This document shows positions 1-24,094 of a DNA stretch of 64,000 nt, piece by piece (positions within the stretch are counted from its first letter, which is position 1; every line of letters begins with the position of its first letter). The DNA comes from a virus (taxonomy: Duplodnaviria; Caudoviricetes): the IMG/VR virus record IMGVR_UViG_641736227_000002; one strand, 5' to 3'. The translations under genes and the position numbers were made by a program. The notes under the pieces were generated by a model, which was given only the letters and a program-made list of their open reading frames with translations, made no database searches and was not told where the DNA came from.

Positions 1-243
1 TTATATCAGTTCTATGTCCGTGATCCTGATTACAGTCTTGAGTGGATCACTGTTTTTCTCTACGATCTCAAAGCAGTAATTGATCCAATCACTGTCCGTG
101 ATCTGGATGCTCCAAGACTCCTGCGGCACGTCTCCTGTGCCGTCCCAGATCTCACCAAGCTCTATTTGCCCCCCCTGCTCTACATCGGGAAGGTTGTTGC
201 CAAACTGGTCCATTGCCTGTGCTTTTTCTATTATATTATTCAT
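1..243 (-). CDS. Small acidic hypothetical protein (candidate anti-defence protein)
   Basis: 80 aa, D/E-rich, GGAGG RBS upstream; last visible gene of the leftward operon. Confidence 0.75.
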   Translation of the reverse strand: MNNIIEKAQAMDQFGNNLPDVEQGGQIELGEIWDGTGDVPQESWSIQITDSDWINYCFEIVEKNSDPLKTVIRITDIELI

Positions 244-259
244 ATTTATTACCTCCGTT

Positions 260-700
260 TTATTTTTGTTTTTCGCCTAACAATAAGTGTCCAAGGCATC
301 TTGTGAAATCGCCTGTCCATGATAAAATATCTTGGTGCAGTAATGCGCCAGGGAAAAGAAGATCTAGGATAAAAGGTGGCTGAACCGGGAATGGCTCTAC
401 TTTGTCAGGAAGGGCCGGTTCAGCAATTTTCAGCATCGTCTTCCATATTTTTTTCGCTTGTAGTTTGTTACAAGCACCTGCGGTGGCTAATACAACATCA
501 CCACCGACTTTAATTGTCGCGACATAACCGCCTTGCTCAGTTGTCAATTCCATCGTTGCTCCGTCTAGCAACTCGATAGGATCTCCCTCATTAGTGTTTC
601 TGATCAAGTTTGTTAGGTATTCGATTGTTTCATTTCGCACATCTTCCGTACCTGATACTCTATTATGTTGCGTGTTTATCGTATAATGATTAATTTCCAT
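260..700 (-). CDS. Hypothetical protein (146 aa, start MEINHY)
   Basis: Start re-called at 700 behind a GAGG RBS that overlaps the end of the upstream gene. Confidence 0.7.
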   Translation of the reverse strand: MEINHYTINTQHNRVSGTEDVRNETIEYLTNLIRNTNEGDPIELLDGATMELTTEQGGYVATIKVGGDVVLATAGACNKLQAKKIWKTMLKIAEPALPDKVEPFPVQPPFILDLLFPGALLHQDILSWTGDFTRCLGHLLLGEKQK

Positions 701-995
701 TTTTATCGCCTCTTTCTTCTCCGAGCTCAATGTTAAAAAATCTTCCATCCTTGTCCGTTCCGAGAAAACAAGGTGCTCCGTCGTTATCATACAATAGCTC
801 GTTCGGGGTGTATACCCAACCCCATGGCGCAGTAATGACTATGTCAGTTTCGTTTTTTTCGACTTCCCATCCATCCGGTATTTTTACTTCTATTTTTTCG
901 CTAAAATCTGCCTGTTCAGATTTGTTTCCGTATGTATAAATCGTTCTTTTTTCTGCGGATAAAACACCATAATTTTTATATAATTCTATTGTCAT
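690..995 (-). CDS. Small acidic hypothetical protein (101 aa, start MTIELY)
   Basis: AAGGGAG RBS before ATG at 995; tight operon spacing. Confidence 0.75.
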   Translation of the reverse strand: MTIELYKNYGVLSAEKRTIYTYGNKSEQADFSEKIEVKIPDGWEVEKNETDIVITAPWGWVYTPNELLYDNDGAPCFLGTDKDGRFFNIELGEERGDKNGN

Positions 996-1019
996 GTTAT
1001 CTTCTCCCTTCATTAATTG

Positions 1020-1433
1020 CTATCTTCCAAAAACTTCCTTCTTTAATCTCATGCAAAGAGCATTTCCGCTAATTCTCATTTGTGTGTAAAAAGATCTGTA
1101 ATACTCGTCAGAGGCTTTGTTATTTTTGCTTAAAAGCTCAATCACATCACCTGCATAGGATTCCTTTGTGATTTCAACGATTTTGTTTAAAATTTCTTCC
1201 GCTTTTTCTTTTTGTTCTTTCGGTACCATGTTTAAGTAAGATGTAAATTCTGTGCTCATTTTTTCGATAAGTTCTTTTGCCCAGGCAATCTGTTTTTCGC
1301 TGCCTTTGAGTTTTGTTATTTTCATTTTCGCTTCCCTCCATGCTTTCTTCAATGCGGAGGAAATCGTTTCTTTAAATCTTTTTACCAGCTCCCATGCTCT
1401 TTTCATGATTTTTGATAAGTTATATTTTTTCAT
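1020..1433 (-). CDS. Hypothetical protein with MKKYNLSKIMKRAW leader and KGSEKQIAWA motif
   Basis: AAGGAGG RBS; first gene after the leftward promoter; paralogous N-terminus at 1894-2051. Confidence 0.85.
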   Translation of the reverse strand: MKKYNLSKIMKRAWELVKRFKETISSALKKAWREAKMKITKLKGSEKQIAWAKELIEKMSTEFTSYLNMVPKEQKEKAEEILNKIVEITKESYAGDVIELLSKNNKASDEYYRSFYTQMRISGNALCMRLKKEVFGR

Positions 1434-1487
1434 CTTCGTTTCCTCCTTATTAACTCGTTTCCTTTACTGTAATTATAGTATAAACCA
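1330..1487. repeat. Left arm of perfect 158-bp inverted repeat
   Basis: Reverse complement of 1840-1997. An extra ~24-bp inverted match pairs 1513-1536 with 1790-1813. Confidence 0.95.
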
Positions 1488-1505
1488 TTTTTGGTTTATT
1501 GTCAA
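1477..1505 (-). promoter_or_regulatory. Sigma-A promoter TTGACA-17-TATACT with palindromic operator ATAAACCA-N4-TGGTTTAT (1480-1499)
   Basis: Read directly; 17-nt spacer. Confidence 0.85.
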
Positions 1506-1537
1506 TTCTTTTTTAAACTTTTTTCAGTTTATTTTTG

Positions 1538-1566
1538 TTGACCATTTTTATTGTGTACTATATACT
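1538..1566 (+). promoter_or_regulatory. Sigma-A promoter TTGACC-17-TATACT for the HTH gene
   Basis: Read directly. Confidence 0.75.
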
Positions 1567-1587
1567 TATATAAAAGGAGGGAAAAAG

Positions 1588-1797
1588 ATGATTGTATATA
1601 AAATTGATGTAATCGAATCTTTGAAAGAGGCAGGATATAATAGTACGAGGATTTTAAAAGAAAACATTATAGGCCAGTCCGCAATGACGAAAATCAGAAA
1701 CGGTGAGCCAGTTGGAATTAAAACGTTAGATAAGATTTGTGAATTGCTAGATATGCAGCCTGGTAACATTATCAAATATGTAGAAACGAAAAAATAA
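1588..1797 (+). CDS. Small Cro/C1 (Xre, HTH_26-like) transcriptional regulator; Aca-like candidate
   Basis: AAGGAGG RBS; 69 aa MIVYK...TLDKICELLDMQPGNIIKYV, a typical HTH_26 signature. Confidence 0.9.
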   Translation: MIVYKIDVIESLKEAGYNSTRILKENIIGQSAMTKIRNGEPVGIKTLDKICELLDMQPGNIIKYVETKK

Positions 1798-1821
1798 ACT
1801 GAAAAAAGTTTAATTCTCCTG

Positions 1822-1850
1822 TTGACTTTAGACCGTTTTTGGTTTATACT
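1822..1850 (+). promoter_or_regulatory. Sigma-A promoter TTGACT-17-TATACT with operator variant TAGACCG-N4-TGGTTTA
   Basis: Read directly. Confidence 0.85.
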
Positions 1851-1997
1851 ATAATTACAGTAAAGGAAACGAGTTAATAAGGAGGAAACGAAGATGAAAA
1901 AATATAACTTATCAAAAATCATGAAAAGAGCATGGGAGCTGGTAAAAAGATTTAAAGAAACGATTTCCTCCGCATTGAAGAAAGCATGGAGGGAAGC
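1840..1997. repeat. Right arm of perfect 158-bp inverted repeat
   Basis: Reverse complement of 1330-1487. Confidence 0.95.
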
Positions 1998-2055
1998 AAA
2001 AAATGAAAATGGCAGAACTCAAAGGAACCGAAAAACAGGTTGCTTGGGCAAATGA
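1894..2055 (+). CDS. 53-aa leader ORF whose first 36 aa match 1020..1433; out of frame with 2003..2404 because of one extra A
   Basis: MKKYNLSKIMKRAWELVKRFKETISSALKKAWREAK, then a shift at the A6 run 1998-2003. Confidence 0.65.
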   Translation: MKKYNLSKIMKRAWELVKRFKETISSALKKAWREAKNENGRTQRNRKTGCLGK

Positions 2056-2404
2056 CATCAGAAACAAAGGAATCGAATTTTGTGAAAAATATGATTTTTC
2101 TTTTGCAAAACAAAAGTTTTGTGATATGGATTCATCAAAATGGTTTATTGATGAATGGAGGGGTCTCACTAGTAGAGGAAATAAATTCGGTATGGTAGCA
2201 AACCTGATGGAACTTAACATTCAAGAAGAAACTAGGATCATTAGAGAAAAGAATGGCCGTGCAATTAAACATAAGGAGCGAGTACAGATACTTGACTCAT
2301 ATGAAAAATACCGTAACATTGATTCAGAAGTCGATTATAAAATAAACGAATTTTGGAGCGATGGTCAATATTTATGGGGTGGAAGTATTTCCGGTCAGAA
2401 TTGA
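2003..2404 (+). CDS. Hypothetical protein with KGTEKQVAWA motif (paralogue of 1020..1433)
   Basis: GGAGG upstream of ATG; ELKGTEKQVAWA versus KLKGSEKQIAWA. Confidence 0.75.
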   Translation: MKMAELKGTEKQVAWANDIRNKGIEFCEKYDFSFAKQKFCDMDSSKWFIDEWRGLTSRGNKFGMVANLMELNIQEETRIIREKNGRAIKHKERVQILDSYEKYRNIDSEVDYKINEFWSDGQYLWGGSISGQN

Positions 2405-2415
2405 GGAGGATTAAT

Positions 2416-2898
2416 ATGAAATTTGTAGATTTAAATTCGGAAATAGAAATCATGGAAAAGTCTATTGCTCGACAAATTAAAGATAGTGGTCTCACTAAAG
2501 AGCAACTAATTCAGGCCAATAATTTTAATCATATTTATGACAAGCATTTTAGTAGTAAAGACAAGCGTGAAGAAGATAATAAGGCCAAAATTGTTTTCTG
2601 GGACCTTGCAGAATCTGCTATGAAATTTGATTTCAGGACAGCCATGAGCATAGAGAGACAAAAAGATGTTCTTGACGTACTCAAAGAAGCGCAGGAAGTC
2701 CATGGTTTTCTAGTATGTGCAAACTATACCTATTACGCTTTTTCCTCCTGTTTATTTAAAGATGGAAAACAAGTAATAGCTTACTCCTGGGATGCTGTTG
2801 CAAATTGCATTGAGGATGGCGGTCTGGAAATAGTTCCTGACTACATCAAAGAAAACGAGAGTTTCAAAAAAACGGTTGAAAATTTATTGAAAGATTAG
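2416..2898 (+). CDS. Hypothetical protein (160 aa, start MKFVDL)
   Basis: GAGGAGG RBS just upstream of ATG 2416. Confidence 0.8.
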   Translation: MKFVDLNSEIEIMEKSIARQIKDSGLTKEQLIQANNFNHIYDKHFSSKDKREEDNKAKIVFWDLAESAMKFDFRTAMSIERQKDVLDVLKEAQEVHGFLVCANYTYYAFSSCLFKDGKQVIAYSWDAVANCIEDGGLEIVPDYIKENESFKKTVENLLKD

Positions 2899-2915
2899 AA
2901 TAAAATAGTTATAAT
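2887..2915 (+). promoter_or_regulatory. Sigma-A promoter TTGAAA-17-TATAAT
   Basis: Near-consensus, with no credible ORF before the terminator at ~3017. Confidence 0.7.
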
Positions 2916-2920
2916 AAAGT

Positions 2921-3020
2921 AAACGGCAGACCCATATTGGGATTTAAAATATATGATAATGCTATAGTCATGCTAATTCTGCCACTAAAAAAAGCCCCGG
3001 ATTGCTCCGAGGCTTTTCTT
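2921..3020 (+). ncRNA. Putative ~100-nt small RNA resembling a solitary CRISPR repeat (crRNA mimic candidate)
   Basis: Own promoter and terminator; CCCA-TAT-TGGG hairpin followed by ATTTAAAAT; GGCAGA (2925) and TCTGCC (2978) can pair. Confidence 0.45.
2987..3020. terminator. Intrinsic terminator, possibly bidirectional
   Basis: AAAAAAAGCCCCGG-attgct-CCGAGGCTTTTCTT. Confidence 0.8.
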
Positions 3021-3048: not shown

Positions 3049-3076
3049 AAAAAAGACCGGGATTTCTCCCGGCCCT
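3049..3076 (-). terminator. Intrinsic terminator after rha
   Basis: GGCCGGGA-gaaa-TCCCGGTC-TTTTTT on the minus strand. Confidence 0.8.
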
Positions 3077-3083: not shown

Positions 3084-3731
3084 TTAAGCTGCAATCTTTG
3101 CACTATTATTCTGCTGTATAAACTCTTTGATCTGGTCATATCCCCAGCCGCAGTCAACCAATCCGCTCACTAAACACTCCATAGACTGCACAGCTCTCAA
3201 GTCCTCCTCTAATAAGTAATCCCTAAGATTCTCCTTTTTATCTATTCCATACTTTTCACGGAGTTGTCTTGCGTTCATCCCGAATAGTACTTTGTAAATA
3301 CAATTCGTATATGTGGAATAGGCATGACCATGCATCCTCTCATTTTCTGTAGACTGCTGTAATGCCTTTGTGAGAGATTGCCGAACCGCAATACCTTTTT
3401 CCCTTTCGATTAGTTTCCCTTGTAAAGTACGTTCCATTGCATTGAACTGTTTTATATACGCCTCTTTAAATTTCATTGCTGTTTCGCCGGTGTAACCCAT
3501 AACCAAAAGAGTGAACCCATCTCGTGTCAAATAGTACATCGGCTGCTTATGCTTCTGTTCGTTTAGATATTTTGACTCCTCAAAATTTAGGAGTCGGAAC
3601 TCTTCACTACAACCAAGTTCTCGAATATCTTTTAATACATTGTCATGCCTTTTTCCAAAAGTATTTGCAACGTCCAAACTACTAACTACTGTTTTTTCCT
3701 GTTTGTCAATTCTTTTTACTTCAACTAACAT
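3084..3731 (-). CDS. Rha-family phage regulatory protein
   Basis: SSLDVANTFGKRHDNVLKDI...YYLTRDGFTLLVMGYTG..AMKFKEAYIKQFNAME; RBS AAGGA before ATG 3731. Confidence 0.9.
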   Translation of the reverse strand: MLVEVKRIDKQEKTVVSSLDVANTFGKRHDNVLKDIRELGCSEEFRLLNFEESKYLNEQKHKQPMYYLTRDGFTLLVMGYTGETAMKFKEAYIKQFNAMERTLQGKLIEREKGIAVRQSLTKALQQSTENERMHGHAYSTYTNCIYKVLFGMNARQLREKYGIDKKENLRDYLLEEDLRAVQSMECLVSGLVDCGWGYDQIKEFIQQNNSAKIAA

Positions 3732-3813
3732 TTTATAATTCCTTTCCTTGATTATTATTTGCATGTAAGGTAGTTAAAAAAATAAGCATACCGGAGGATT
3801 CCAGATGCCCATT

Positions 3814-4554
3814 CTATTTCTTTCTATTTTTGTAAAGAGCCGTGCAGGTCTTTTTCCCGGCATAGCTGCCTTTCTTCCATCCGAGCTGCTTCCAGTATCT
3901 TTCCAACTTTTTCTGTGTTGCTGGTCCCCATTCTCCGTCTACCGCAATGTCTGCACCAGATGCTAGTGAATTTAGTTTTCCCTGCATCCACCGTATTGCA
4001 TTTTTAGAGGATGTCTTTTTTACGGTTGTGTATTTTACACTTTGCCCTCCGATAGCATTTTTAAAAGTTTTCCAACCATTGTTGTCTGCTCCGATCCATG
4101 GCATAGGGCAATTCTTCCCGTTTACGTCCCAGTGCCGGATCACGTGGGATGCTGGAACGCCATATTTCTGCATTAGGAATTTTACCAGTTCGATTGTCTG
4201 GTCCCTAACATTTGCTGGCACTTTCCTAGTAACGTTGCACATCTCTACAGATAAGCTGTTTGCATTCGTGCACTTCTTATAGTAGTTTCCCGCAGCTCCC
4301 ACGGTGGAATAACAGCCGCCGACTGCCCAGGCCACCCGGTTTACTGCCACGGACTTATAGACGTATTTCCCGCCGTCTACAAAGTAGTGTGCGGACGCTC
4401 CCTTGGATGCTCCCTGGAAGTATTTACAGTTATTCAAGGCCGTATCTTTAGAGTTTCCGGTATAATGCACAACGATATAATCTATATCCTTTGTGCTTCT
4501 TTTGCCGCCGTAGTTGCTTTTATGGGCAAACTTCTTTTTAAATTTTAATGCCAT
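3814..4554 (-). CDS. Endolysin, N-acetylmuramoyl-L-alanine amidase (Amidase_2) with C-terminal peptidoglycan-binding domain
   Basis: IVVHYT, SAHYFVD, VIRHWDVNGKNCP; C-terminal VDGEWGPAT. Confidence 0.92.
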   Translation of the reverse strand: MALKFKKKFAHKSNYGGKRSTKDIDYIVVHYTGNSKDTALNNCKYFQGASKGASAHYFVDGGKYVYKSVAVNRVAWAVGGCYSTVGAAGNYYKKCTNANSLSVEMCNVTRKVPANVRDQTIELVKFLMQKYGVPASHVIRHWDVNGKNCPMPWIGADNNGWKTFKNAIGGQSVKYTTVKKTSSKNAIRWMQGKLNSLASGADIAVDGEWGPATQKKLERYWKQLGWKKGSYAGKKTCTALYKNRKK

Positions 4555-8040: not shown

Positions 8041-8757
8041 TTATAAGCTCCCTCCTCTGTAATCTACACTCACTGTTCCAGTGCCTGTGAAAACAAGATA
8101 GTTATCTCCTTCACTAAGCCATATGTCAAATACCTTGCTCCTTCCCAAAGGAAGGCTATATATCTTCTCGTTGTATGTCACCTGCATAGCTGCGCTGCAC
8201 TCGATCACGGGCACGATCTTCTTTCTGCGCCCAGGAATATAGAGTTTATAGCTGCCGTTTATCTTCAAATCCTTATACTCTCTCACAATCCCTGTTTCAA
8301 AATTGAAGTCGTCCCAGGTCCAGTCTTCCAGACTGCTATATTTTTCATACTTATATGGGTCAACCTCGCCTGACAGTGTGATCTTGCTCTCTGCCTTCTC
8401 CGACTTCTCAGAATCCAGTTTGAGGCGTCCTATGTAGTAGAACGCAGGATCACTGTCCAGGAAGATTTTAAACTTCTGGCCTACCAAATAATTTGCAATC
8501 TCGGAGACTTTAGAGTTCCAATCAAAGTAATCTTTGTCCAGCTGGTCAAACTCCATGGTGAGGGATCTTTGCTTGTATTTTACATCTCCCGGAGTCATTG
8601 CCTCAGTGAGATCCAGTGAGCCATCAGCTCCTGGTATGTCCTGCTCATACGTCTTTGCCTCCGGGAATCCAAGGGTGATCGACAACCACCCCAGATTCCA
8701 ATCTCTAAGCGTATGCTTGCCACCAATTAATACGCCTAATGTTCCTCTATCTTCCAT
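8041..8757 (-). CDS. Distal tail protein (Dit)
   Basis: Directly after TMP; IPGADGSLDL and DPAFYYIGR; ends YRGGSL. Confidence 0.85.
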   Translation of the reverse strand: MEDRGTLGVLIGGKHTLRDWNLGWLSITLGFPEAKTYEQDIPGADGSLDLTEAMTPGDVKYKQRSLTMEFDQLDKDYFDWNSKVSEIANYLVGQKFKIFLDSDPAFYYIGRLKLDSEKSEKAESKITLSGEVDPYKYEKYSSLEDWTWDDFNFETGIVREYKDLKINGSYKLYIPGRRKKIVPVIECSAAMQVTYNEKIYSLPLGRSKVFDIWLSEGDNYLVFTGTGTVSVDYRGGSL

Positions 8758-15430: not shown

Positions 15431-16553
15431 TATTTCCATCCTCCACGGATACTACATATATCTCTTGATTGTTATAATCCTTCGTTTCAAGTTCCAATTG
15501 CTTCATGCTTGATTCTATTGCTGGTTTCATCTCTTTAGAAAACTTATACCAACAATCAACATTCTCATTGTTATACGGAAAATAGTCCTGCATTAGAGTT
15601 GCTGCAGATAATCCCTTTCTGGTTATTGGTTTTTCTATAAAATCAAGCATTGTATGGTTGAATTGCTGTAAAATAGTTTTGGCTGTTTTGCTTTCCCCCA
15701 AATACTCTAATATTTGCATCCTCACTCCTACATATTTGGTTGCAATCTGTAAGTCATCAGAAATATAACTCATATATGTATTAATTTGTTTTCCAAATCC
15801 TAAGAATGGTATATTAACTCTTTTAGCAAAGCTTTTTGATGTTGTTTCAATATCACGATAAACAGAATTCAAAGCTGAACGAATTTTGCCATCAGCCTCT
15901 TTAAGCATTTGTACTCTTTCAGTTTCAGACTCTTTAGTAGCTGCCTCAAGGACAAGAGATCGAGCATCTAAAAATGGAACAATAATATCTCTGTCACGAT
16001 CTCTTTCAATTTGATATGTCTGAAATTCTTCGATATCTGACAACTTGGCATAAATCTGCCTCATCTGTAGCTGATTACCTATACTGCGCATAGTTTCGAT
16101 ATTAGCAGGACTATTAAGTGCCTTTTTTAGTGTAATATCTTTTACTCGAACTCCATTCTCGTCAAGTATTACTGCTCTCATGTTTCCATCTACTTGCTTT
16201 GATTCACCAACAGAGTATACTCCTTTTTTCAATTTACTTCGTACATCTGAAGGCAAGCTCTCGAAATCCGGCAACAATGTAACATTTCCGTTTATAATAA
16301 TATCTGCTTTATTTATTGCCTCGCCTATTAAATTTAAATCTGAAAAGGGTAAATCCGTTATTACTTGTAGTCCATCTGACTCACGAATAGCAAGGGACAT
16401 TTTTTGAACATATCCATCAAAGAAATTACTCATCTCTGATATGTTTCTACCATAAATATCTGCGTCAGTTTTAAATATTACAAGCGGCTTTCTTTCAGCT
16501 ATAATCTTATGTGGAATATTTTCCAATTCATCTTTTTTATCATTTTCATTCAT
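15423..16553 (-). CDS. Hypothetical helical protein (~376 aa)
   Basis: Long ORF with a GTGGAG RBS, overlapping the small downstream gene. Confidence 0.85.
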   Translation of the reverse strand: MNENDKKDELENIPHKIIAERKPLVIFKTDADIYGRNISEMSNFFDGYVQKMSLAIRESDGLQVITDLPFSDLNLIGEAINKADIIINGNVTLLPDFESLPSDVRSKLKKGVYSVGESKQVDGNMRAVILDENGVRVKDITLKKALNSPANIETMRSIGNQLQMRQIYAKLSDIEEFQTYQIERDRDRDIIVPFLDARSLVLEAATKESETERVQMLKEADGKIRSALNSVYRDIETTSKSFAKRVNIPFLGFGKQINTYMSYISDDLQIATKYVGVRMQILEYLGESKTAKTILQQFNHTMLDFIEKPITRKGLSAATLMQDYFPYNNENVDCWYKFSKEMKPAIESSMKQLELETKDYNNQEIYVVSVEDGNNE

Positions 16554-16569
16554 AGAATATTTCTCCACA

Positions 16570-16974
16570 TTAATTAAGTTCATTTAGTCTTTTGAGCCAT
16601 TTTGCAATAGTTCCGTCTTTAAAAAGAGATAATAAAGCACCGTCACAAAATCTTTCTGCTCTTACAGCTCCTACAAGTAATGCCATTACACATTTTCCAT
16701 CCAAATCATCTACTAATGCATCAGTCATAGATTTTGATTCCCATTTGATTCCATTCTCATTAAGAATATCTGAATAATGATTCAATTTCATTTCTGGATG
16801 CTTATCAATAAATGAATAAAGATCGTCAATAAACTGATGCACCATTTTTGAGTAATTCACATATGGCATTTGGATAGGATGCTCAGATGTTCCATCATTT
16901 TCTTTATCAATTACCCAGTCACCTATACCATCACTTGATAACAACGGTAAGTACTTTATTAAACTCTCATACAC
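16570..16974 (-). CDS. DUF6508-like protein
   Basis: VRAERFCDGALLSLFKDG..KWLKRL motif. Confidence 0.7.
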   Translation of the reverse strand: MYESLIKYLPLLSSDGIGDWVIDKENDGTSEHPIQMPYVNYSKMVHQFIDDLYSFIDKHPEMKLNHYSDILNENGIKWESKSMTDALVDDLDGKCVMALLVGAVRAERFCDGALLSLFKDGTIAKWLKRLNELN

Positions 16975-16991
16975 AATTTATCACCCTTTCA

Positions 16992-18737
16992 TTAAAGCAA
17001 TTCTGTTTCCAATTGTTTCCTCAATAATTTTTTTCTCTCTTCCATAAACTTAATGAAGTTTCCGTAAGTATAATCCATCTCCGGCAGATAATTTATTTTT
17101 CTATATTGGATTTTATCTGTATCAGTTAGGTAATTGGATTCAAACCAGTCAGAAAAATCTTTATCTTGTTTTTCTATATTCGGAATGGCTGCAAGCATCT
17201 GAAGATTACTTAAATCATTTACTTGATTTATATATTCATCAATTTGATTAGTTGGCACATCTCTTTTCCCTAGAGCTGTTCTTGTAAATTTACTCTTTGG
17301 ATATATATGATCAATATGAAACTTATTATTGTAATCCAAAGAAGGATATAACATCATCAAAACCATCAAGGTATCTGCTCTTCCATATTGAAGTTCTAAC
17401 AAGTTTTCAATATCATCATCCGTAAATACAATAGTTTTACTTGTTCCCCTCAGCTTGTTAATAATCTCATCCAGTGGGAATTCTTTGTTTCCATTTGATT
17501 TTATAATTTCACGCAAAGGTCTAAGAACATTATCTGGTTGACCACTGAAGGTTCGTTTTATTAAGGACATTGTGAGCCATTTCTTTATTTTCTTTCTATT
17601 GCTTACAGTTGTTGATGAAACCTCAAAATTATTTGGATTACCTATCGTCATAAGGTAGTATGCAATTGGAATAACCGCATTATTGGATTTCAAACTATCT
17701 CTTGAAAATCCAAAACTTGATACAAGCAGAAATGCTTGAGTGATTGATGTCTTAATTGTATGCCAATTCTGCTCTATCATGAGCATGTTCTGCTTGTTAA
17801 AGTTGTCTACCTTGAATGCAATATTACTGAATCCGGTAAGAACTAACGCTGCTTTCAAAATAAAATCCTTATTTACATTGAACCCTGAACCAATAGCGTT
17901 AATATAATCAACAAACTCTGTAATTTCTTTTCTGGCATCTAAAGTTTCCCACTGTGCAGTAGCAATGGATAACAAAAGATCAGAATAACTAAGCACTGTG
18001 CCACCACTATTTACTCGTATAAAAATTTGGAGTACTTTATCCAACTCATTAGATCTAACCTTATAATAGCTGATACTTGGTTGTGTATGTATTACCTTAA
18101 ATAGCTGCGACAATGTGGCATTTGCAAAAACACTCTGTTCCTTTGTATAAATACCTGAAAATGCAATATTTTGCATAAGGAAATCCATGACATCACCTAA
18201 TTCGGTCATATTTAGAATATCTCCTACTTCAAACCAATAGTGACTATTGTCATTCTCCACTTCTTCTGCTGTAAGAAATGAAAATTCATATTTATCTGTT
18301 TCACTGTCTGCAGGTTCCACTATATTTAAATACAGTTTTCTTTCCGGAAATGCAGATTCATTTTTCCATTGTTTGAATGGCATTTTATATGCATATGTGC
18401 CTTTTAATCCAATAAATATAGATGTCAGCCTCTGTTGTCCATCTAAAACCGCCATCACATTATCGTTTCCTGTAAGATTCACTTTTGGATTATGTCTAGC
18501 ATTTTTTTCATGATAATTTTGTAAAAAAGAGTAAAATTCATAAAGAGTATTCTGTTCTCTATCAAGTTCCCAAAACAAGAATGCACCAAACGGATAATCT
18601 TGCATTACACTATCAAAAAGTCTCTCTATCTGTGAAGTATTCCATACAAATTCTCTTTGAATCGATGGGAGTACATACTTATTAGCTGATATATCCCTTA
18701 CAACCTCTGCTATAGTTAATGGTGACTCATAAGCCAT
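16992..18737 (-). CDS. DUF262/DUF1524 (GmrSD-type) modification-dependent restriction nuclease
   Basis: LPSIQREFVW, DGQQRLTS, FIRVNSGG; C-terminal HIDHIYP..NL..N HNH-like motif. Confidence 0.85.
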   Translation of the reverse strand: MAYESPLTIAEVVRDISANKYVLPSIQREFVWNTSQIERLFDSVMQDYPFGAFLFWELDREQNTLYEFYSFLQNYHEKNARHNPKVNLTGNDNVMAVLDGQQRLTSIFIGLKGTYAYKMPFKQWKNESAFPERKLYLNIVEPADSETDKYEFSFLTAEEVENDNSHYWFEVGDILNMTELGDVMDFLMQNIAFSGIYTKEQSVFANATLSQLFKVIHTQPSISYYKVRSNELDKVLQIFIRVNSGGTVLSYSDLLLSIATAQWETLDARKEITEFVDYINAIGSGFNVNKDFILKAALVLTGFSNIAFKVDNFNKQNMLMIEQNWHTIKTSITQAFLLVSSFGFSRDSLKSNNAVIPIAYYLMTIGNPNNFEVSSTTVSNRKKIKKWLTMSLIKRTFSGQPDNVLRPLREIIKSNGNKEFPLDEIINKLRGTSKTIVFTDDDIENLLELQYGRADTLMVLMMLYPSLDYNNKFHIDHIYPKSKFTRTALGKRDVPTNQIDEYINQVNDLSNLQMLAAIPNIEKQDKDFSDWFESNYLTDTDKIQYRKINYLPEMDYTYGNFIKFMEERKKLLRKQLETELL

Positions 18738-18740
18738 TAT

Positions 18741-18956
18741 TTATTCCTCCTTTTTCCTCACATAAGTAAGCTCAACATCATATCCAAGTTCTTCCATCAT
18801 ACGAATGAATGTCTTGTTAACAACACCATCATTCTTTTTGATAATTCGATTAACATATGGACTTGATGTATCGGATTTCTCTGCAAGCTGAGCCTGTGTA
18901 ATTCCGTTTTCTATACATTTAACTTTTACATCTACTTCTATATTGTTCTTTAGCAT
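18741..18956 (-). CDS. Xre HTH regulator heading the defence operon
   Basis: ITQAQLAEKSDTSSPYVNRII; GAGGAG RBS before ATG 18956. Confidence 0.85.
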   Translation of the reverse strand: MLKNNIEVDVKVKCIENGITQAQLAEKSDTSSPYVNRIIKKNDGVVNKTFIRMMEELGYDVELTYVRKKEE

Positions 18957-18969
18957 ATTCACTCTCCTC

Positions 18970-19033
18970 GTGCTTATGAATTTATTGCACAAATAAGATA
19001 ATTTATTCTAACATATAATGCGTAATTTTTCAA
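18970..19033 (-). promoter_or_regulatory. Promoter TTGAAA-17-TAGAAT with downstream GTGC..GCAC imperfect palindrome
   Basis: -35 at 19028-19033, -10 at 19005-19010, palindrome at 18970-18990. Confidence 0.65.
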
Positions 19034-19061
19034 TTGCTGAAATGTTACATTTCCGTAAACA

Positions 19062-19094
19062 GAAAAAGCACCCAGACCAACAGGTCTGAGTGCA
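19062..19094 (-). terminator. Terminator after the recombinases
   Basis: GCACTCAGACC-tgtt-GGTCTGGGTGC-TTTTT. Confidence 0.8.
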
Positions 19095-19106
19095 ACTCTA
19101 CTGTAT

Positions 19107-20690
19107 TTATTCAACTTTAATTTCTGTCCCGTCCTTGAAAACTACTGTTACTTCTTCCTTGCTTTTTACGACAATCTTTTCCACAAGGCTGCTCCAAAGT
19201 GCCTCGTCAAATTCGGTTATCAGTTCCGATTGTCCGTTGAGAACTGTGATGAATCTACCCATCTGCTCGTACTTAGCATCTTTTTCAGATATTGTAGTAC
19301 AGACAGTATCGTATTCTTCTTTTAGCTTATTGTATCGCTCTACCAAGGAATTATACTTTTTGTTGTACTCGTCCTGGTTCTGAGCCACTCTCGCATTCTC
19401 CGCTACAATATTCTGCGTCATTTCCACCGCAATAGCTATCTCTTCTTCCAAGGATTCTTTCTTTTTAACAAGGTCTGCCTTGTCACAAAGTGTAGTTCGT
19501 ATCAGTTGAAGATTATCAAGGATTTCTGCTTTTTCTGTAATAAGCTGATTCATCGCCTTTACAAAATATTCTTTGATTTCAAACTCCGTCAAATGTGGAG
19601 TTGAGCATCCGGTCTTGTGCCTGAACTTGTTATTGCACTGATAAATAATTCTCCTGTATTTATCGTTAGAATGCCAAACCTTGCTGCCATACCAACCACC
19701 ACACTCAGCACACTGCACCTTGGAAGAAAAGATTGACACTCCGCTGTACCTTGTACTTCCTTTGCCTCTTCGCTGAATTTCAGCTTGTACTAAGTCGAAT
19801 AACTCCGGTTCAATAATTGCCGGATGATTGTTTTCTACATAATACTGTGGGACTTCACCCTCATTGGTTTTAGTCTTTTTCGTAAGAAAGTCCACTGTGT
19901 ACGACTTCTGCAAAAGTGCATCACCCTTATACTTTTCGTTAGTTAGAATACTGCGAACTGTTGACTGGCTCCAGTTATCTTTACTTGCAGGAGTTTTCAA
20001 TCCTCTCTTTGTCAATTCATTTGCTATGGAATGCATTGTAAGTCCATCTAAGAATAGCTTATAAATCAGTTTTACCGTTTGTGCCTGTTCCTCATTGATT
20101 ACAAGACTGCCATCTGGGGCTTTATCATAGCCGAGAAATCTGCTGTAGGCAAAGCTGACTTTTCCATCTGCAAAACGCTTTCTGTGTCCCCATGTGACAT
20201 TCTCCGAAATGGATCTACTTTCTTCCTGTGCAAGAGAACTCATAATGGTAAGTAGTAGTTCTCCCTTGCTGTCAAACGTCCATATGTTCTCTTTTTCAAA
20301 GTAGCATTCAATATTGTGTTCTTTTAGTTTTCTGATGGTAGAAAGGGAATCAACAGTATTTCTTGCAAATCGGCTGACTGACTTTGTAATAATAAGGTCA
20401 ATCTTTCCGGCAAGCGCATCAGCAATCATAGTATTGAAGCCATCTCTATGCTTCGTATTTGTTGCACTGATTCCTTCATCAGAATATAGTCCAGCAAATT
20501 CCCAATCATCTCTGCCTTTTATATAATTTGTATAATAGTCTACCTGTGCAACATAACTTGTAGTTTGATCCTCATGGTCTGTACTTACACGGGCATATCC
20601 TGCAACCTTTCGTTTTTTCTTACTGTCCACAGGCTTGGCAGTAAATTTATTGATGGTTGCAGGTATTTGCGTTACTTTTCTTTTCGCCAA
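19107..20690 (-). CDS. Large serine recombinase
   Basis: YARVST, KSVSRFARN, recombinase domain, Zn ribbon and coiled coil. Confidence 0.95.
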   Translation of the reverse strand: MAKRKVTQIPATINKFTAKPVDSKKKRKVAGYARVSTDHEDQTTSYVAQVDYYTNYIKGRDDWEFAGLYSDEGISATNTKHRDGFNTMIADALAGKIDLIITKSVSRFARNTVDSLSTIRKLKEHNIECYFEKENIWTFDSKGELLLTIMSSLAQEESRSISENVTWGHRKRFADGKVSFAYSRFLGYDKAPDGSLVINEEQAQTVKLIYKLFLDGLTMHSIANELTKRGLKTPASKDNWSQSTVRSILTNEKYKGDALLQKSYTVDFLTKKTKTNEGEVPQYYVENNHPAIIEPELFDLVQAEIQRRGKGSTRYSGVSIFSSKVQCAECGGWYGSKVWHSNDKYRRIIYQCNNKFRHKTGCSTPHLTEFEIKEYFVKAMNQLITEKAEILDNLQLIRTTLCDKADLVKKKESLEEEIAIAVEMTQNIVAENARVAQNQDEYNKKYNSLVERYNKLKEEYDTVCTTISEKDAKYEQMGRFITVLNGQSELITEFDEALWSSLVEKIVVKSKEEVTVVFKDGTEIKVE

Positions 20691-22465
20691 TTTCTGCCAC
20701 GCTCCTTCCTCATATTTTTCATACGCTGACTCATCTCGGCCTTACGCTCCGGTGTCCATTTTTCTTTCATAATCTGTCGCATATGTTCTTTTTGTTCTTC
20801 TGAGCAATGCCTGCCGCCACGCTTCGGTGGTTCAAAGGTCATCGGTGTTACTATTCCATCTTTTCCAACAACTTCTAGCTGATAGCCGTCAATGTTTATT
20901 TGCTCTACTTTTTCTGCAAAAACCTTCTCGTCCCATTCTGCCATTCCGAGAACTTCTGCAAGCTGAGATTTCAAAAAATCTTCTCTTAGTCCTTGTGCCT
21001 TACAAGCGGTTCTTTCAGCACATCGCCAATAATAAAATTTGCCATCTTCCGATGAAGTTGATGGCTGAGTGCATCGCCTATAATTGCAGCCACAATGCTT
21101 GCATTTTAATTTACTTGTAAATACCGATGCACCTTTTGGATTTGTATTCTTCTTTCTTCTTTGCTTAGACACCTTATCTCGATATTCTTTAGTCCAACAA
21201 TCTTGATGACCCGTATTCTCGCAAGGCCTAGTAACAATAGTTCCATCTTGCAAATGAATCTCCAGAGTATACCTCTTTGGAACATTGATAAAGTCTACCT
21301 TATCAAGGAAAACTTCATCATCAAATTCATCAATATCTAGAACCTCGGCAAGAACCTTTTTCATATTATCCTGGTTAATACTTGCTCCTACTTCGCAGTG
21401 TCCGCCTTTTTTCTTTCTTGAACCACATACCCAAAACTCTAATCTTTTTCCGTTTGGAGTTCGTGGCTTTCTGGTGTTATGCATATAGCTGACACCACAG
21501 TAAGGGCATTTAATCTTTCCCGTAAAACAAGAAATGTTAAGGCTCTTATTTGCCAACGCTCCCAGCTGTCTGCGTCTTGCCATTTCATCTTGTATATACT
21601 GAAATGTCTCAAGGTCAATAATTGCCTCGTGGGTATCTTCCACCCAATACTGTGGCAATTCTCCACGATTTTGCTTACGCTTTTTATTGATGGGGTCTGA
21701 TATAAATTCCTTCTGAAAAAGCATGTTACCCGTATAAGTAATGTTGGTTAATATCTTCTTGATATTAGAATCTCTCATCACGCAGCCTTGCCTAGTACGA
21801 ATACCCTCAGCTTCAAGTTCTCTTTCCGTTTCCAGTCTTGATTTTCCATCAAGAAAATTTTGATAAATTCTCTTTACCACCTCTGCTTCTTTCGGAACAA
21901 TGATTAACTCATCTCCTTGCCATTCATATCCGTAGATGTTGAAGTGTCCACTTGCATTTAGCATACCTTCCTGCATCCTTTTACGAATGCCCCACTTCAC
22001 ATTATCCGATATAGAACGGCTCTCTTCTTGAGCAAAAGAAGCAAGTATGGAAAGCATCAACTCTCCATTACCACTTAAAGAATTGATATTCTCTTTTTCA
22101 AATCTGACCTCAATTCCTAAATTTTTTAGATGTCTTACTGTTTCAAGCAAATCCACTGTATTTCTTGCAAATCGCTGTATTGACTTTGTAAGAATAATAT
22201 CAATTTTTCCTTGCTCAGCATCTGCAATCATTCGTCTGAACTCATCACGCTTGACTGTACTTGTTCCGCTGATACCATTATCGGCATATACTCCAGCAAA
22301 TTCCCAGTCCGGATTCTTTTGAATGAAATCATTGTAGTAACTTATCTGTGCAGAAAGCGAGTGATTCATTCGCTCTGATTCCATTGAAATTCTAGCGTAT
22401 GCAGCAACCTTTTTTCTTTTCTTTATAGTTGGTATCGTACTCTCAATCTTGGTAATTGTACGCAT
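20672..22465 (-). CDS. Large serine recombinase with two Zn-ribbon domains
   Basis: YARISM, KSIQRFARN; CPYC and CKHC ribbons. Confidence 0.95.
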   Translation of the reverse strand: MRTITKIESTIPTIKKRKKVAAYARISMESERMNHSLSAQISYYNDFIQKNPDWEFAGVYADNGISGTSTVKRDEFRRMIADAEQGKIDIILTKSIQRFARNTVDLLETVRHLKNLGIEVRFEKENINSLSGNGELMLSILASFAQEESRSISDNVKWGIRKRMQEGMLNASGHFNIYGYEWQGDELIIVPKEAEVVKRIYQNFLDGKSRLETERELEAEGIRTRQGCVMRDSNIKKILTNITYTGNMLFQKEFISDPINKKRKQNRGELPQYWVEDTHEAIIDLETFQYIQDEMARRRQLGALANKSLNISCFTGKIKCPYCGVSYMHNTRKPRTPNGKRLEFWVCGSRKKKGGHCEVGASINQDNMKKVLAEVLDIDEFDDEVFLDKVDFINVPKRYTLEIHLQDGTIVTRPCENTGHQDCWTKEYRDKVSKQRRKKNTNPKGASVFTSKLKCKHCGCNYRRCTQPSTSSEDGKFYYWRCAERTACKAQGLREDFLKSQLAEVLGMAEWDEKVFAEKVEQINIDGYQLEVVGKDGIVTPMTFEPPKRGGRHCSEEQKEHMRQIMKEKWTPERKAEMSQRMKNMRKERGRNWRKEK

Positions 22466-22489
22466 GAAATCAACCTCCTTCCTTACACA

Positions 22490-22523
22490 TATATCACTCT
22501 AAAGCCCACTTATATCAAGTCAA
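22490..22523 (-). promoter_or_regulatory. Motif II copy 1 (CTTG-N12-TTTAGAGTGAT)
   Basis: Also at 42437-42470 and 43640-43667 with identical spacing. Confidence 0.75.
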
Positions 22524-22686
22524 TATCGGCAAATAATGTACCCAAAGTTGGCTGATATTTTTCCTGCATTTTTGTATCAATTATGGTGTACTCTTCCTTA
22601 GTTATAAGTCCATCATCAAGCATCTTTTTTGCTATACTCATGGTTATCTGATACAGCTTTTCCTGTTTCATCTGCTCCTTACTCAT
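22510..22686 (-). CDS. Small SHOCT-like recombinase-associated protein
   Basis: MLDDGLITKEEY motif; GGAGG RBS. Confidence 0.8.
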   Translation of the reverse strand: MSKEQMKQEKLYQITMSIAKKMLDDGLITKEEYTIIDTKMQEKYQPTLGTLFADIDLI

Positions 22687-23107: not shown

Positions 23108-23124
23108 AAGTAGAACCACCTCCT

Positions 23125-23160
23125 AAGTAACAGGCAAAGAAAATGGCTCAAATTTTAACT
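23125..23160 (-). promoter_or_regulatory. Motif I copy 1 (AGTTAAAA-N13-CTTTGCCTGTTACTT), putative phage-sigma promoter
   Basis: Identical boxes and spacing at 54557 and 59122. Confidence 0.8.
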
Positions 23161-23168
23161 TTTCACGC

Positions 23169-23208
23169 AAAAAAATGCCCGTCAGAGAAATTAATCTCCA
23201 ACGGGCAT
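23169..23208 (-). terminator. Terminator after the endolysin
   Basis: ATGCCCGT..ACGGGCAT stem plus T tract. Confidence 0.8.
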
Positions 23209-23229
23209 AATGATTGCTGAGTTATTCAG

Positions 23230-24093: not shown

Positions 24094-24094
24094 A

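What the first reader, a model, noticed from the sequence alone, without database searches (positions are those of the whole stretch)
1..3020. Candidate bidirectional anti-defence (Acr/Aca-like) island: six or more small unknown proteins, one HTH repressor and a small RNA
Seen: just past the lysis module are two divergent operons of small, mostly acidic proteins with no recognisable family. Each is driven by a near-consensus sigma-A promoter with a palindrome in its spacer, and a lone small HTH gene sits between them. Established: Firmicute siphophage anti-CRISPR loci commonly lie next to the lysis module, have strong promoters, and are repressed by Aca HTH proteins binding promoter palindromes. 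Inference: these are new anti-CRISPR/anti-defence proteins co-located with an RNA-based inhibitor (2921-3020). I could not match any protein to a named Acr from memory.
Basis: partly seen in the sequence, partly recalled or inferred. Interest (0 to 1): 0.8.

Follow-up and report, generated by a model that had tools for sequence, protein, structure and literature searches.

The report
Repressor-controlled two-way accessory gene island
At the end of an Anaerostipes caccae prophage, just past the lysis genes, a small repressor gene sits between two outward-facing promoters that drive six small proteins of unknown function; the layout resembles an anti-CRISPR locus, no cargo protein matches a known inhibitor, and the repressor cassette lies within a long inverted repeat and is assembled in both orientations.

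Summary
Window 1-3020 is the terminal accessory island of an Anaerostipes caccae prophage. It has a leftward operon D-C-B-A, a 69-aa Cro/C1 HTH gene, and a rightward operon F-G, then a promoter-terminator unit, Rha, endolysin and holin.

It duplicates the promoter, two operators, the RBS and about 55 codons of the paralogues D and F. The operator AAAC[CT]-N6-[AG]GTTT occurs four times here. It recurs at fixed offsets beside HTH homologues in about 60 of 81 related loci.

The identical HTH occurs with many different cargo sets. Two metagenome scaffolds carry this island with the HTH cassette flipped; the crossover lies in the identical core. Short-read mis-orientation is not excluded.

F is split only by one extra A, which is absent from other assemblies.

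No cargo protein matches any Pfam, PHROG-function, PADLOC, NCBIfam or PDB entry. C folds confidently into an unmatched beta fold. One homologous cassette carries a borderline AcrIC5-family gene; others carry HicAB or antirepressors.

The "small RNA" is a conserved near-consensus promoter plus bidirectional terminator. An inhibitory role is unsupported.

Verdict: Aca-like regulation is well supported by sequence. Anti-defence cargo is plausible but unproven.

The parts
1..243 (-). Gene A: 80 aa, pI 4.05, last gene of the leftward operon and outermost prophage gene.
   Evidence: ORF; pI. Three different host contexts follow it in L164, L166 and L167. Homologues at 42-99% identity in related loci. 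No family hit.
260..700 (-). Gene B: 146 aa, pI 5.1, unknown function.
   Evidence: Matches phrog_28365 (unknown function), E 3.3e-6. 26 homologue clusters, some named Anaerostipes or Caudoviricetes hypothetical protein. No PDB sequence match. No protein-atlas hit.
690..995 (-). Gene C: 101 aa, pI 4.4, small beta-rich protein from a wide family.
   Evidence: 132 representative clusters at E<=1e-3. AlphaFold model with pLDDT 92.6 and pTM 0.80. No fold match: Foldseek PDB best E 0.29; VIA-align best Z 2.7; BFVD best E 0.029, to an uncharacterised protein.
1020..1433 (-). Gene D: 137 aa, basic, all-helical, first gene of the leftward operon. Its N-terminal 36 residues are nearly invariant across phages.
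   Evidence: Alignment A3. DNA alignment shows synonymous changes, so the constraint is on the protein. Model pLDDT 69.6, no fold match.
1273..1536 (.). Left arm of the inverted repeat. Its identical core is 1330-1487.
   Evidence: about 90% over 263-266 aligned nt. The 158-nt core forms one double-depth contig in isolate runs (table 8). Arm alignment.
1477..1505 (-). Leftward promoter P_L: TTGACA-17-TATACT.
   Evidence: 11 of 12. The same promoter layout precedes D-family genes in other phages.
1481..1498 (.). Operator O1, TAAACCATTTTTGGTTTA, in the P_L spacer.
   Evidence: A conserved site at -105 or -119 from the HTH start in related loci.
1514..1531 (.). Operator O2, just upstream of the -35 boxes of both P_L and the HTH promoter.
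   Evidence: Found at -72 in some relatives.
1538..1566 (+). Promoter of the HTH gene: TTGACC-17-TATACT.
   Evidence: 10 of 12. RBS AAAGGAGGG lies before the ATG at 1588.
1588..1797 (+). HTH repressor gene: 69 aa, Cro/C1-type.
   Evidence: Pfam HTH_26, 35.8 bits against a cutoff of 22. The identical protein is listed in 203 index blocks. Homologues in at least 80 GTDB species, nearly all Lachnospiraceae.
1795..1812 (.). Operator O3, overlapping the HTH stop codon.
   Evidence: Found at +2 to +4 in relatives.
1829..1846 (.). Operator O4, TAGACCGTTTTTGGTTTA (one mismatch), in the P_R spacer.
   Evidence: Found at +30 to +44 in relatives.
1822..1850 (+). Rightward promoter P_R: TTGACT-17-TATACT.
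   Evidence: 10 of 12.
1790..2055 (.). Right arm of the inverted repeat. Its identical core is 1840-1997.
1894..2404 (+). Gene F, paralogue of D. It reads as 53 + 133 aa in the window because of one extra A at 1998-2003; it is intact at 169 aa elsewhere.
   Evidence: one gap in 3100 nt against CP102254.1. table 4: one letter is left out at 1998 in runs X1 and X13.
2416..2898 (+). Gene G: 160 aa, pI 5.1, narrow family.
   Evidence: Only 5 clusters found. The exact protein is listed in 163 index blocks. No family or PDB match. The atlas model is poor.
2887..3020 (+). Promoter-terminator unit, a candidate RNA of about 100 nt. Promoter TTGAAA-17-TATAAT at 2887-2915; stem GGCAGA/TCTGCC; bidirectional terminator at 2993-3015.
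   Evidence: 11 of 12. Fold z-score -3.96. Conserved at 88-100% downstream of either G or B in relatives, where the promoter is TTGACA-17-TATAAT. No Rfam family. No compensatory changes.
3053..3076 (-). Terminator of the Rha / late operon.
3084..3764 (-). Rha-family regulatory protein (context; present only in some relatives).
   Evidence: Pfam Phage_pRha 3.7e-34. TIGR02681 1.2e-42. Absent in L175, L173 and L269.
3814..4554 (-). Amidase_2 endolysin (context).

Best explanation
This is a self-contained, repressor-governed accessory-gene cassette at the outer end of an Anaerostipes caccae siphovirus prophage.

Proposed mechanism:
- A 69-aa Cro/C1-type HTH protein is made from its own promoter.
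- By inference it binds as a dimer to four 16-18-bp palindromes (AAAC[CT]-N6-[AG]GTTT).
- One palindrome lies in the spacer of each of two strong outward-facing promoters. One lies about three helical turns away, just upstream of each -35 box.
- With no repressor present (fresh infection or induction), both promoters fire and give a burst of D-C-B-A leftward and F-G rightward.
- As the HTH accumulates it throttles both operons. This is the logic of an Aca repressor, or of a miniature lambda immunity region.

Cassette design:
- The repressor-plus-operator unit is a conserved, portable module of Lachnospiraceae phages. Cargo genes are exchanged by recombination at the shared promoter and 5' gene sequence.
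- In this phage two cargo sets have been joined head to head. This creates a 264-nt inverted repeat across which the repressor cassette has inverted at least once.
- Inversion swaps the -35/operator variants between the two operons. It also changes which operon lies downstream of the unterminated HTH transcript.

Cargo function is not established. My best guess is host-takeover or counter-defence proteins: about 35% that at least one is anti-defence, about 20% anti-CRISPR specifically.

Shown by sequence: genes, promoters, operators, the repeat, conservation, cargo turnover, and both orientations in assemblies.
Inferred: DNA binding, repression, timing, and any function of the cargo.
For: - HTH_26 domain.
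- Four palindromes confined to the island.
- The same motif sits at fixed offsets (-105/-119, -72, +2, +35) from HTH homologues in about 60 of 81 IMG/VR loci, and is nearly absent elsewhere in those loci.
- Inverted repeats of 42-111 nt flank the HTH gene in 11 other loci.
- Promoters score 10-11 of 12 consensus positions.
- No terminator lies between the HTH gene and F.
- The identical HTH occurs with at least six different cargo layouts.
- D-family genes in other phages sit behind the same promoter design but with lineage-specific palindromes.
- Gene A is followed by three different host contexts, so the island is the prophage terminus.
- L166 and L167 carry a 99%-identical island with the HTH cassette mirrored. 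Inner arm differences travel with the cassette and outer ones stay with their genes. The island is identical in two different phage backbones and host sites.
- The exact 158-nt core is shown by isolate contigs.
- Position past the lysis genes matches acrIB2 of phiCD38-2.
- One AcrIC5-family hit lies in a homologous cassette.
Against: - No binding or expression data were available.
- The HTH has no significant match to any solved Aca, AcrIIA1 or other regulator chain.
- In a large group of ~55-kb phages the homologous HTH precedes ordinary early genes (MazG, DUF3310). The family is therefore not tied to accessory cargo.
- Orientation B rests on short-read metagenome scaffolds. Both orientations contain exactly the same k-mers, so an assembler could mis-orient the segment. 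In one sample the scaffolds simply break at the repeat.
- The AcrIC5 hit is borderline: 29.9 bits against a cutoff of 27, covering profile positions 11-42 of 53. The PDB sequence search found no AcrIC5 chain.
Confidence: 0.6

Rival explanations
1. One reading: a true acr-aca type anti-defence island. One or more of A, B, C, D, F or G inhibit CRISPR-Cas (type I-B is present in related hosts) or another defence system, and the HTH is their Aca.
For: - Aca-like architecture, and position past the lysis genes.
- A constant HTH with variable small cargo.
- Four acidic small proteins.
- An AcrIC5-family gene downstream of a 78%-identical HTH with the same operators, in L005.
- AcrIC5 homologues are reported to pair with many different Aca families.
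- Related hosts carry a type I-B cas operon with a mini-array.
Against: - No cargo protein of the window matches a known Acr or anti-defence family or solved structure.
- The other named hits among 150 neighbour cluster representatives are regulators, antirepressors, HicAB, Phd, HNH, acetyltransferase or lysis genes; most representatives have no named hit.
- D and F are basic helical proteins, unlike typical Acrs.
- No self-targeting spacer could be tested, because the host genome is not held.
Confidence: 0.3
2. A secondary immunity or antirepressor control region, like immI of phage P22 (mnt-arc-ant with the small sar RNA; from my own knowledge). The HTH would keep lysogeny-destabilising or superinfection-related genes silent. 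D/F or other cargo would act on the phage's own or rival repressors. The small transcript would be a regulatory RNA.
For: - Antirepressor families (PHROG 373, 4608, 7755, 1726, 63 and others) are the most frequent named families among neighbours of HTH homologues.
- A Rha-family gene adjoins the island.
- A conserved promoter-terminator unit lies beside it.
- The location at the end of the late region matches P22 immI.
Against: - Rha is on the late-operon strand, has no operator, and is absent from several relatives.
- No cargo protein matches an Ant, KilAC or ORF6N domain.
- The small transcript is not antisense to any island gene and shows no convincing complementarity in the window.
Confidence: 0.15
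3. A programmed DNA switch. The inverted repeat exists so that the repressor cassette flips at useful frequency. This would toggle which cargo operon gets the stronger -35/operator set and the read-through from the HTH promoter, giving phase-variable expression within a lysogen or phage population.
For: - Both orientations are on record, with a reciprocal exchange inside a 158-nt perfectly identical core.
- The -35 boxes and operator centres lie inside the flipping part, and the -10 boxes lie in the core.
- Shorter inverted repeats flank the HTH gene in 11 other loci.
- An earlier scan note on another genome describes the same bracket design.
- Two large serine recombinase / invertase-family genes lie at 19.1-22.5 kb.
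Against: - Each orientation is fixed within a lineage: A in two assemblies of what is probably one strain (one base apart over 3100 nt), B in one variant. No mixed sample has been seen.
- No recombinase is adjacent. The serine recombinases belong to a second prophage.
- 158 nt of identity is enough for RecA-type recombination.
- The two promoter variants differ by only one -35 base and one operator base, so the regulatory effect would be small.
- Within-sample heterogeneity could not be tested, because the runs are held only as k=31 contigs.
Confidence: 0.12
4. Lysogenic-conversion or superinfection-exclusion cargo (morons) that benefits the lysogen, for example by blocking other phages or through toxin-antitoxin-like functions, rather than counter-defence for the phage.
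For: - Terminal position next to the host junction.
- Homologous cassettes carry HicA/HicB and Phd-type genes.
- Own promoters independent of the late operon.
Against: - No PADLOC or Pfam defence or TA hit for any window protein.
- No membrane or secretion features are evident in the translations.
- Strong repressible promoters fit burst expression better than steady lysogenic expression.
Confidence: 0.2

Closest known systems
acr-aca loci of Firmicute phages (Listeria acrIIA1 loci, from my own knowledge; C. difficile phiCD38-2 acrIB2 locus, bioRxiv 10.1101/2023.05.22.541795)
   Same: - Sits immediately past the lysis genes, near the prophage end.
- Small unknown, often acidic proteins.
- An HTH regulator with palindromic sites in a strong promoter.
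- A constant regulator with changing cargo.
   Different: - No cargo protein here is homologous to a validated Acr.
- The HTH is an HTH_26 protein with no detected likeness to solved Aca or AcrIIA1 chains.
- The regulator lies between two outward promoters rather than at the end of a single operon.
- The cassette sits inside a 264-nt inverted repeat.
Lambda-type immunity region (repressor gene between OL/PL and OR/PR; established knowledge)
   Same: One repressor gene is flanked by two outward-firing early promoters. Each promoter carries several copies of one palindromic operator in mirror arrangement.
   Different: - Much smaller: a 69-aa single-domain protein.
- Located at the late end of the genome, not the lysogeny switch.
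- The repressor has its own co-directional promoter.
- Flanking genes are accessory, not N/cro-type.
- The arms extend into paralogous coding sequence.
P22 immI region (mnt, arc, ant, sar RNA; from my own knowledge)
   Same: Small repressor-controlled divergent promoters beside the late genes. A small RNA unit and an antirepressor-family gene lie nearby.
   Different: - The repressor is an HTH, not a ribbon-helix-helix protein.
- The Rha gene is not under the operators.
- The small transcript is not antisense to the regulated genes.
Gene units flanked by long inverted repeats that invert by recombination (for example R-M units, Furuta et al. 2010, PMC2853133; I know this paper only from an earlier scan note and did not read it) and invertons (PhaseFinder-type)
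   Same: A segment bracketed by inverted repeats is found in both orientations in related genomes. Promoter parts lie inside the segment.
   Different: - The repeat is long (158 nt identical) and includes coding sequence.
- No dedicated invertase is adjacent.
- No within-population switching has been shown.

Membership tests
Cro/C1-type HTH (Pfam HTH_26, PF13443) | Domain match above the curated threshold | tested here: met
   35.8 bits against a cutoff of 22, E 9.5e-9, residues 12-65.
acr-aca operon | An HTH regulator is encoded with the operon | tested here: met
   HTH gene 1588-1797 lies between the two operons.
acr-aca operon | Inverted-repeat operator(s) in the acr promoter, bound by the Aca | tested here: inconclusive
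   Palindromes lie in both promoter spacers and are conserved at fixed offsets in relatives. Binding itself cannot be tested here.
acr-aca operon | At least one cargo protein is a known Acr or a homologue of one | tested here: not met
   No hit for A, B, C, D, F or G in Pfam, PHROGs, NCBIfam, PADLOC or PDB sequences. The fold searches for C and D found nothing and count only as inconclusive.
acr-aca operon | Cargo inhibits a CRISPR-Cas system | not testable with these tools
   Needs interference assays.
acr-aca operon | Homologues of the HTH lie next to known acr genes (guilt by association) | tested here: inconclusive
   One of 150 neighbour cluster representatives passes Pfam AcrIC5: L005:3969-4166, 29.9 bits against a cutoff of 27. 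The PDB sequence search gave no support. The other named hits are regulators, TA or antirepressor genes.
Named Aca families (Aca1-13) | Sequence homology of the HTH to a named Aca | tested here: inconclusive
   Only the solved chains could be compared. The best regulator hit is an XRE protein at E 0.04. No Aca HMM set was available.
RNA anti-CRISPR (Racr, solitary CRISPR-repeat mimic; PMC10651486) | The RNA resembles the CRISPR repeat of the host | tested here: inconclusive
   No match within 3 mismatches to the type I-B repeat of a related host. No Rfam hit of any kind, CRISPR-DR included, at E<=1. The arrays of A. caccae itself were not available.
Programmed invertible element (inverton) | Inverted repeats bracket the segment, and both orientations exist | tested here: met
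   Caveat: orientation B comes only from short-read scaffolds.
Programmed invertible element (inverton) | A dedicated recombinase is encoded at or next to the segment | tested here: not met
   No recombinase lies within the island or its flanks. The nearest serine recombinases are at 19.1-22.5 kb, beside a second prophage's lysis gene.
Programmed invertible element (inverton) | Both orientations occur within one clonal population | not testable with these tools
   All runs are held as k=31 contigs, which break at the 158-nt core.

The most novel reading that the evidence does not exclude
The inverted-repeat-bracketed repressor cassette is a recurrent, selected DNA switch of Lachnospiraceae phages. 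By flipping, a phage population would hedge between two counter-defence cargo operons, changing which one is co-transcribed with the repressor and which gets the stronger promoter and tighter operator. The invariant 36-residue head of the D/F proteins, together with the shared promoter, would double as the recombination site that lets cargo be swapped between phages. That would be phase-variable, modular anti-defence in gut phages.
Probability: 0.1. Interest if true: 0.8.

Novelty: new variant of a known kind. Interest (0 to 1): 0.5.

Why it matters
Lachnospiraceae are dominant human gut bacteria, and almost nothing is known about how their phages handle host defence.

- **A search anchor.** This HTH with its operator signature is present in at least 80 species and in hundreds of viral contigs. 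It marks slots filled with small genes of unknown function. If some are anti-defence proteins, it opens a large reservoir of new inhibitors, including candidates against type I-B systems.
- **A candidate new fold.** Protein C has a confident predicted fold with no solved relative, and a family of more than 130 clusters.
- **A possible mechanism for cargo exchange.** The natural inversion across a repeat that joins promoter and coding sequence suggests how cargo is exchanged between phages. It may also show how cargo expression is rebalanced.
- **If the cargo is ordinary.** The locus would still be a compact, portable two-promoter, one-repressor module that could be useful for genetics in gut Firmicutes.

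Tried and rejected
- **DNA similarity to deposited phages:** only three short hits in unannotated fecal phage records.
- **PADLOC, NCBIfam, Pfam and PHROG scans of all island proteins:** nothing beyond HTH_26, Rha and one unknown-function PHROG.
- **PDB sequence searches for HTH, B, G, D, the C-family profile and the L005 AcrIC5-like protein:** nothing significant.
- **Protein atlas for B and G:** no usable hit.
- **Search for longer proteins carrying the D N-terminal module:** one unannotated 308-aa protein only.
- **Fold searches for D (Foldseek PDB) and C (Foldseek PDB, VIA-align wide, BFVD):** no meaningful match.
- **Large proteins that hit C weakly:** these are repetitive Ig-like surface proteins and probably share only a strand motif.
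- **Genome-contig scan with G:** found nothing; the window's own species appears to be left out. I could therefore not read the A. caccae CRISPR arrays or test self-targeting.
- **Spacers of the mini-array of a related host:** no match in the window.
- **Search for the D-side junction:** none in viral contigs, and one 1.5-kb contig in metagenome contigs. That contig and L168 contain only one full arm, so they may be single-cargo relatives and do not prove inversion.
- **Read laying:** all runs are Logan contigs. They cannot give orientation, strand or expression. X19/X20 contigs with an 'opposite strands' joint at 1328/1998 are canonical HTH->D relatives with other left-hand genes, not flipped copies.
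- **Complementarity search of the candidate RNA against the window:** best hit 13 nt at 37.8 kb, unconvincing.
- **Consensus folding of six variants:** no compensatory pair.
- **Inverton survey paper of a defined gut community:** no mention of Anaerostipes in the text or the held supplements.

Full report
**Where the window lies**

- The window is bases 1-64000 of a 98,269-nt IMG/VR provirus record.
- It is 100% identical to Anaerostipes caccae draft scaffold DS499731.1. It differs by one base in 3100 from the finished genome CP102254.1.
- Homologues of protein B are named from Anaerostipes and from uncultured Caudoviricetes.
- Position 1 is the stop codon of gene A. Beyond A, three assemblies continue into three different host contexts: PTS regulators, LRR/DUF2201/AAA, and DUF3783/EAL.
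- A is therefore the outermost phage gene, and the island is the prophage terminus.

**Anatomy**

Reading the + strand:
- A (80 aa), B (146), C (101) and D (137) lie on the minus strand and form one leftward operon.
- A 154-nt control region follows.
- Next comes a 69-aa gene with a Pfam HTH_26 Cro/C1 domain (E 9.5e-9).
- F and G (160 aa) lie on the plus strand.
- A promoter-like site and two terminators follow.
- Then come a Rha-family gene, an Amidase_2 endolysin and an r1t-type holin on the minus strand.

- Four of the six cargo proteins are acidic (A 4.05, C 4.39, G 5.07, B 5.14). D and F are basic.
- F reads as 53 + 133 aa only because the A-run 1998-2003 has six A's. CP102254.1 and the contigs of two other isolate runs have five, giving an intact 169-aa F.
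- The two promoter regions are not merely similar. They are arms of one inverted repeat.

**The inverted repeat and operators**

- Arms 1273-1536 and 1790-2055 are about 90% complementary.
- A 158-nt core, 1330-1487 / 1840-1997, is perfectly identical. Isolate k=31 contigs break exactly at its edges, and the core forms one contig at double depth.
- Each arm carries one operator upstream of the -35 box, the -35 box, an operator in the spacer, the -10 box, the 5' UTR, the RBS and the first ~55 codons of D or F. D and F are thus paralogues that share their heads.
- The unique centre (1537-1789) is the HTH promoter and gene.
- The operator TAAAC[CT]-N6-[AG]GTTTA occurs at 1481, 1514, 1795 and 1829. 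It occurs only once more, with a mismatch, in 64 kb; 0.74 are expected by chance.
- Operator centres within an arm are 33-34 nt apart.

**Conservation**

- HTH homologues (57-88% identity) occur in hundreds of IMG/VR contigs and in at least 80 GTDB species, nearly all Lachnospiraceae.
- In about 60 of 81 viral loci the same palindrome lies at fixed offsets from the gene (-105 or -119, -72, +2 to +4, +30 to +44). It is almost absent from the remaining ~10 kb of each locus.
- Eleven other loci have blastn-detectable inverted repeats of 42-111 nt bracketing the gene.
- A more distant HTH group (68% identity) lacks the motif and presumably has another specificity.
- The repressor with its mirrored operator/promoter set is therefore a conserved module.
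- An earlier scan note on another genome (e1-3475015) independently describes a 16-bp inverted repeat bracketing a 67-aa HTH cassette, with the -35 box inside and the -10 box outside.

**Cargo turnover**

The identical 69-aa protein is listed in 203 index blocks. The usual layout is: host | one or two small leftward genes | HTH -> cargo -> | candidate RNA unit | <- endolysin.

Cargo sets seen downstream of the HTH include:
- D-C-B
- a 128-aa D relative, then C and B
- a 140-aa and a 148-aa protein
- F-G

L265 has the order HTH-B on one side and F-G-A on the other.

The window's phage carries both main cargo sets, one on each side of a single HTH.

Elsewhere the HTH family sits next to serine integrases, endolysins and terminases, or at the head of early operons with MazG and DUF3310. 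It is a general small regulator at module junctions, not a marker of one function.

**Both orientations**

- In scaffolds L166 and L167 the island is 99% identical to the window, but the HTH gene is mirrored about the centre of the repeat: 8505-8714(+) instead of 8447-8656(-).
- Aligning the arms shows that the outer differences, in D and F coding sequence, stay with their genes. The inner differences (operator spacer, -35 box, adjoining bases) move with the HTH gene. This places a reciprocal crossover inside the identical core.
- L166 and L167 have identical islands but different tail modules and different host insertion sites. The flipped form is therefore a circulating haplotype.
- Caveat: the two orientations contain exactly the same k-mers. 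Short-read assemblers must rely on read pairs, and in one sample the scaffolds stop at the repeat.
- L168 and L263 contain only one complete arm and may be single-cargo relatives.
- I could not test for mixed populations, because every run is held only as k=31 contigs.
- Flipping would exchange TTGACA plus a perfect operator for TTGACT plus an imperfect one between the two operons. It would also redirect read-through from the HTH promoter, since no terminator follows the HTH gene. The predicted effect is modest.
- No recombinase is adjacent. Two large serine recombinases at 19.1-22.5 kb belong with a second prophage.
- Ordinary homologous recombination is the simplest cause. Earlier scan reports on other genomes reached similar conclusions for comparable brackets (e1-1070778 and e1-3485874).

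**Cargo proteins**

- None of A, B, C, D, F or G hits a curated family, a defence model or a solved-structure sequence.
- B belongs to an unknown-function PHROG and to a narrow Anaerostipes-phage family.
- G has only five related clusters.
- C belongs to a family of 132 representative clusters. It gives a confident model (pLDDT 92.6) with no match in PDB or BFVD.
- D and F share a 36-residue head (MKKYNLSKIMKRAWELVK...LKKAWxEAK) that is essentially invariant across proteins whose tails are 41-55% identical. Synonymous changes show the constraint is on the protein.
- In other phages D-family genes follow the same promoter design, but with different palindromes in the spacer. This implies other cognate repressors.
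- The D model is helical, of moderate confidence, and unmatched.

**Guilt by association**

I clustered all ORFs within 2 kb of 170 HTH homologues and scanned 150 cluster representatives.
- Named hits were mainly antirepressors and regulators, plus HicA/HicB, Phd, HNH, an acetyltransferase and lysis genes.
- One protein, L005:3969-4166 (65 aa, acidic), passes the Pfam AcrIC5 threshold (29.9 against 27 bits). It is the second gene downstream of a 78%-identical HTH with the same operators, just before the endolysin.
- The match is partial and is not echoed in the PDB sequence search.
- AcrIC5 homologues are known to pair with many regulator families.
- The validated clostridial acrIB2 also lies just past the lysis genes.
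- Related Anaerostipes-type hosts carry a type I-B cas operon with a four-repeat array. Related prophages even integrate right beside that array.
- Together this keeps the anti-CRISPR idea alive at roughly one in five, and any anti-defence role at about one in three.

**The 'small RNA'**

- At 2887-2915 lies TTGAAA-17-TATAAT. In relatives it is TTGACA-17-TATAAT.
- About 75 nt downstream lies a hairpin (2993-3015) with an A-run before it and a T-run after it, so it can terminate in both directions. In relatives that lack Rha it is the endolysin terminator.
- The unit is 88-100% conserved whether G or B precedes it. It belongs with the lysis side rather than with the cargo.
- It folds better than shuffles (z -3.96). 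There is no compensatory change, no Rfam family, no likeness to the one CRISPR repeat available and no clear target.
- A ~100-nt transcript is likely. Its role is unknown, and calling it an inhibitor is unsupported.

**Verdict**

- The best-supported mechanism is a portable repressor/operator cassette giving Aca-like or lambda-like control of two divergent accessory operons. The inverted repeat is a by-product of joining two cargo sets, and it has recombined at least once.
- The function of the cargo remains open.
- I rate it a new variant of a known kind, of moderate interest.

Noticed in passing
window 19107-24123 and 30998-42036: The 98-kb 'provirus' is composite. Two adjacent large serine recombinases (527 and 597 aa; PHROG integrase / DNA invertase) sit at 19.1-22.5 kb. 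They are followed by a second endolysin (23230-24123), a second set of tail genes, a second tape-measure gene (30998-34183) and a large terminase (40435-42036). This is either two tandem prophages or one nested in the other.
   Followed up: partly
window 16000-20000: A low-GC stretch (0.32-0.36, against 0.40-0.47 around it) holds a 581-aa protein of an unknown-function PHROG (phrog_17051, E 6e-262) and a 386-aa protein with no PHROG hit.
   Followed up: no
L173:1300-2500; L262:8966-10001; L260:9599-9831: In related hosts a prophage carrying this HTH island is integrated directly beside a four-repeat CRISPR mini-array (repeat GATAAACAAAAACAAGAGTTGTATTGAAAT). The adjacent type I-B cas6-cas8b-cas7-cas5-cas3 operon has no cas1/cas2 nearby. 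The island is the part of the prophage closest to the array.
   Followed up: partly
window 1326-1433 and 1894-2002; alignment A3: The first 36 residues of D and F are almost invariant across many phage proteins with divergent tails. An internal GGAGGG plus ATG at codon 37 could allow a second, shorter product. In the window's frameshifted F this ATG is the start of the 133-aa ORF.
   Followed up: partly
window 690-995: Protein C gives a very confident predicted beta fold (pLDDT 92.6) with no match in PDB or BFVD. In other phages its relatives are often the first gene after the HTH. One representative (P0034, 169 aa) has a C-like part followed by an HTH_3 domain.
   Followed up: partly
window 2866-2872: A second homopolymer difference: contigs of one isolate run (X1) lack one base at 2866 in the A-run near the 3' end of G. 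This would change the last ~10 codons of G. Another isolate run agrees with the window.
   Followed up: no
window 60613-63116: A low-GC region (0.32-0.35) holds a 424-aa protein matching a restriction-endonuclease PHROG and a divergent 401-aa unknown. This may be a defence cargo of the second prophage.
   Followed up: no
L005:2837-4888: A cassette with a 78%-identical HTH carries, downstream, a 64-aa acidic ORF, the 65-aa AcrIC5-family ORF and a 241-aa Cys-rich protein whose cluster (family 7) may be the member that matched the HNH-endonuclease PHROG in the pooled scan (not assigned to a member). A 132-aa protein of pI 4.05 lies on the other side. This makes it a better anti-CRISPR candidate locus than the window itself.
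   Followed up: partly
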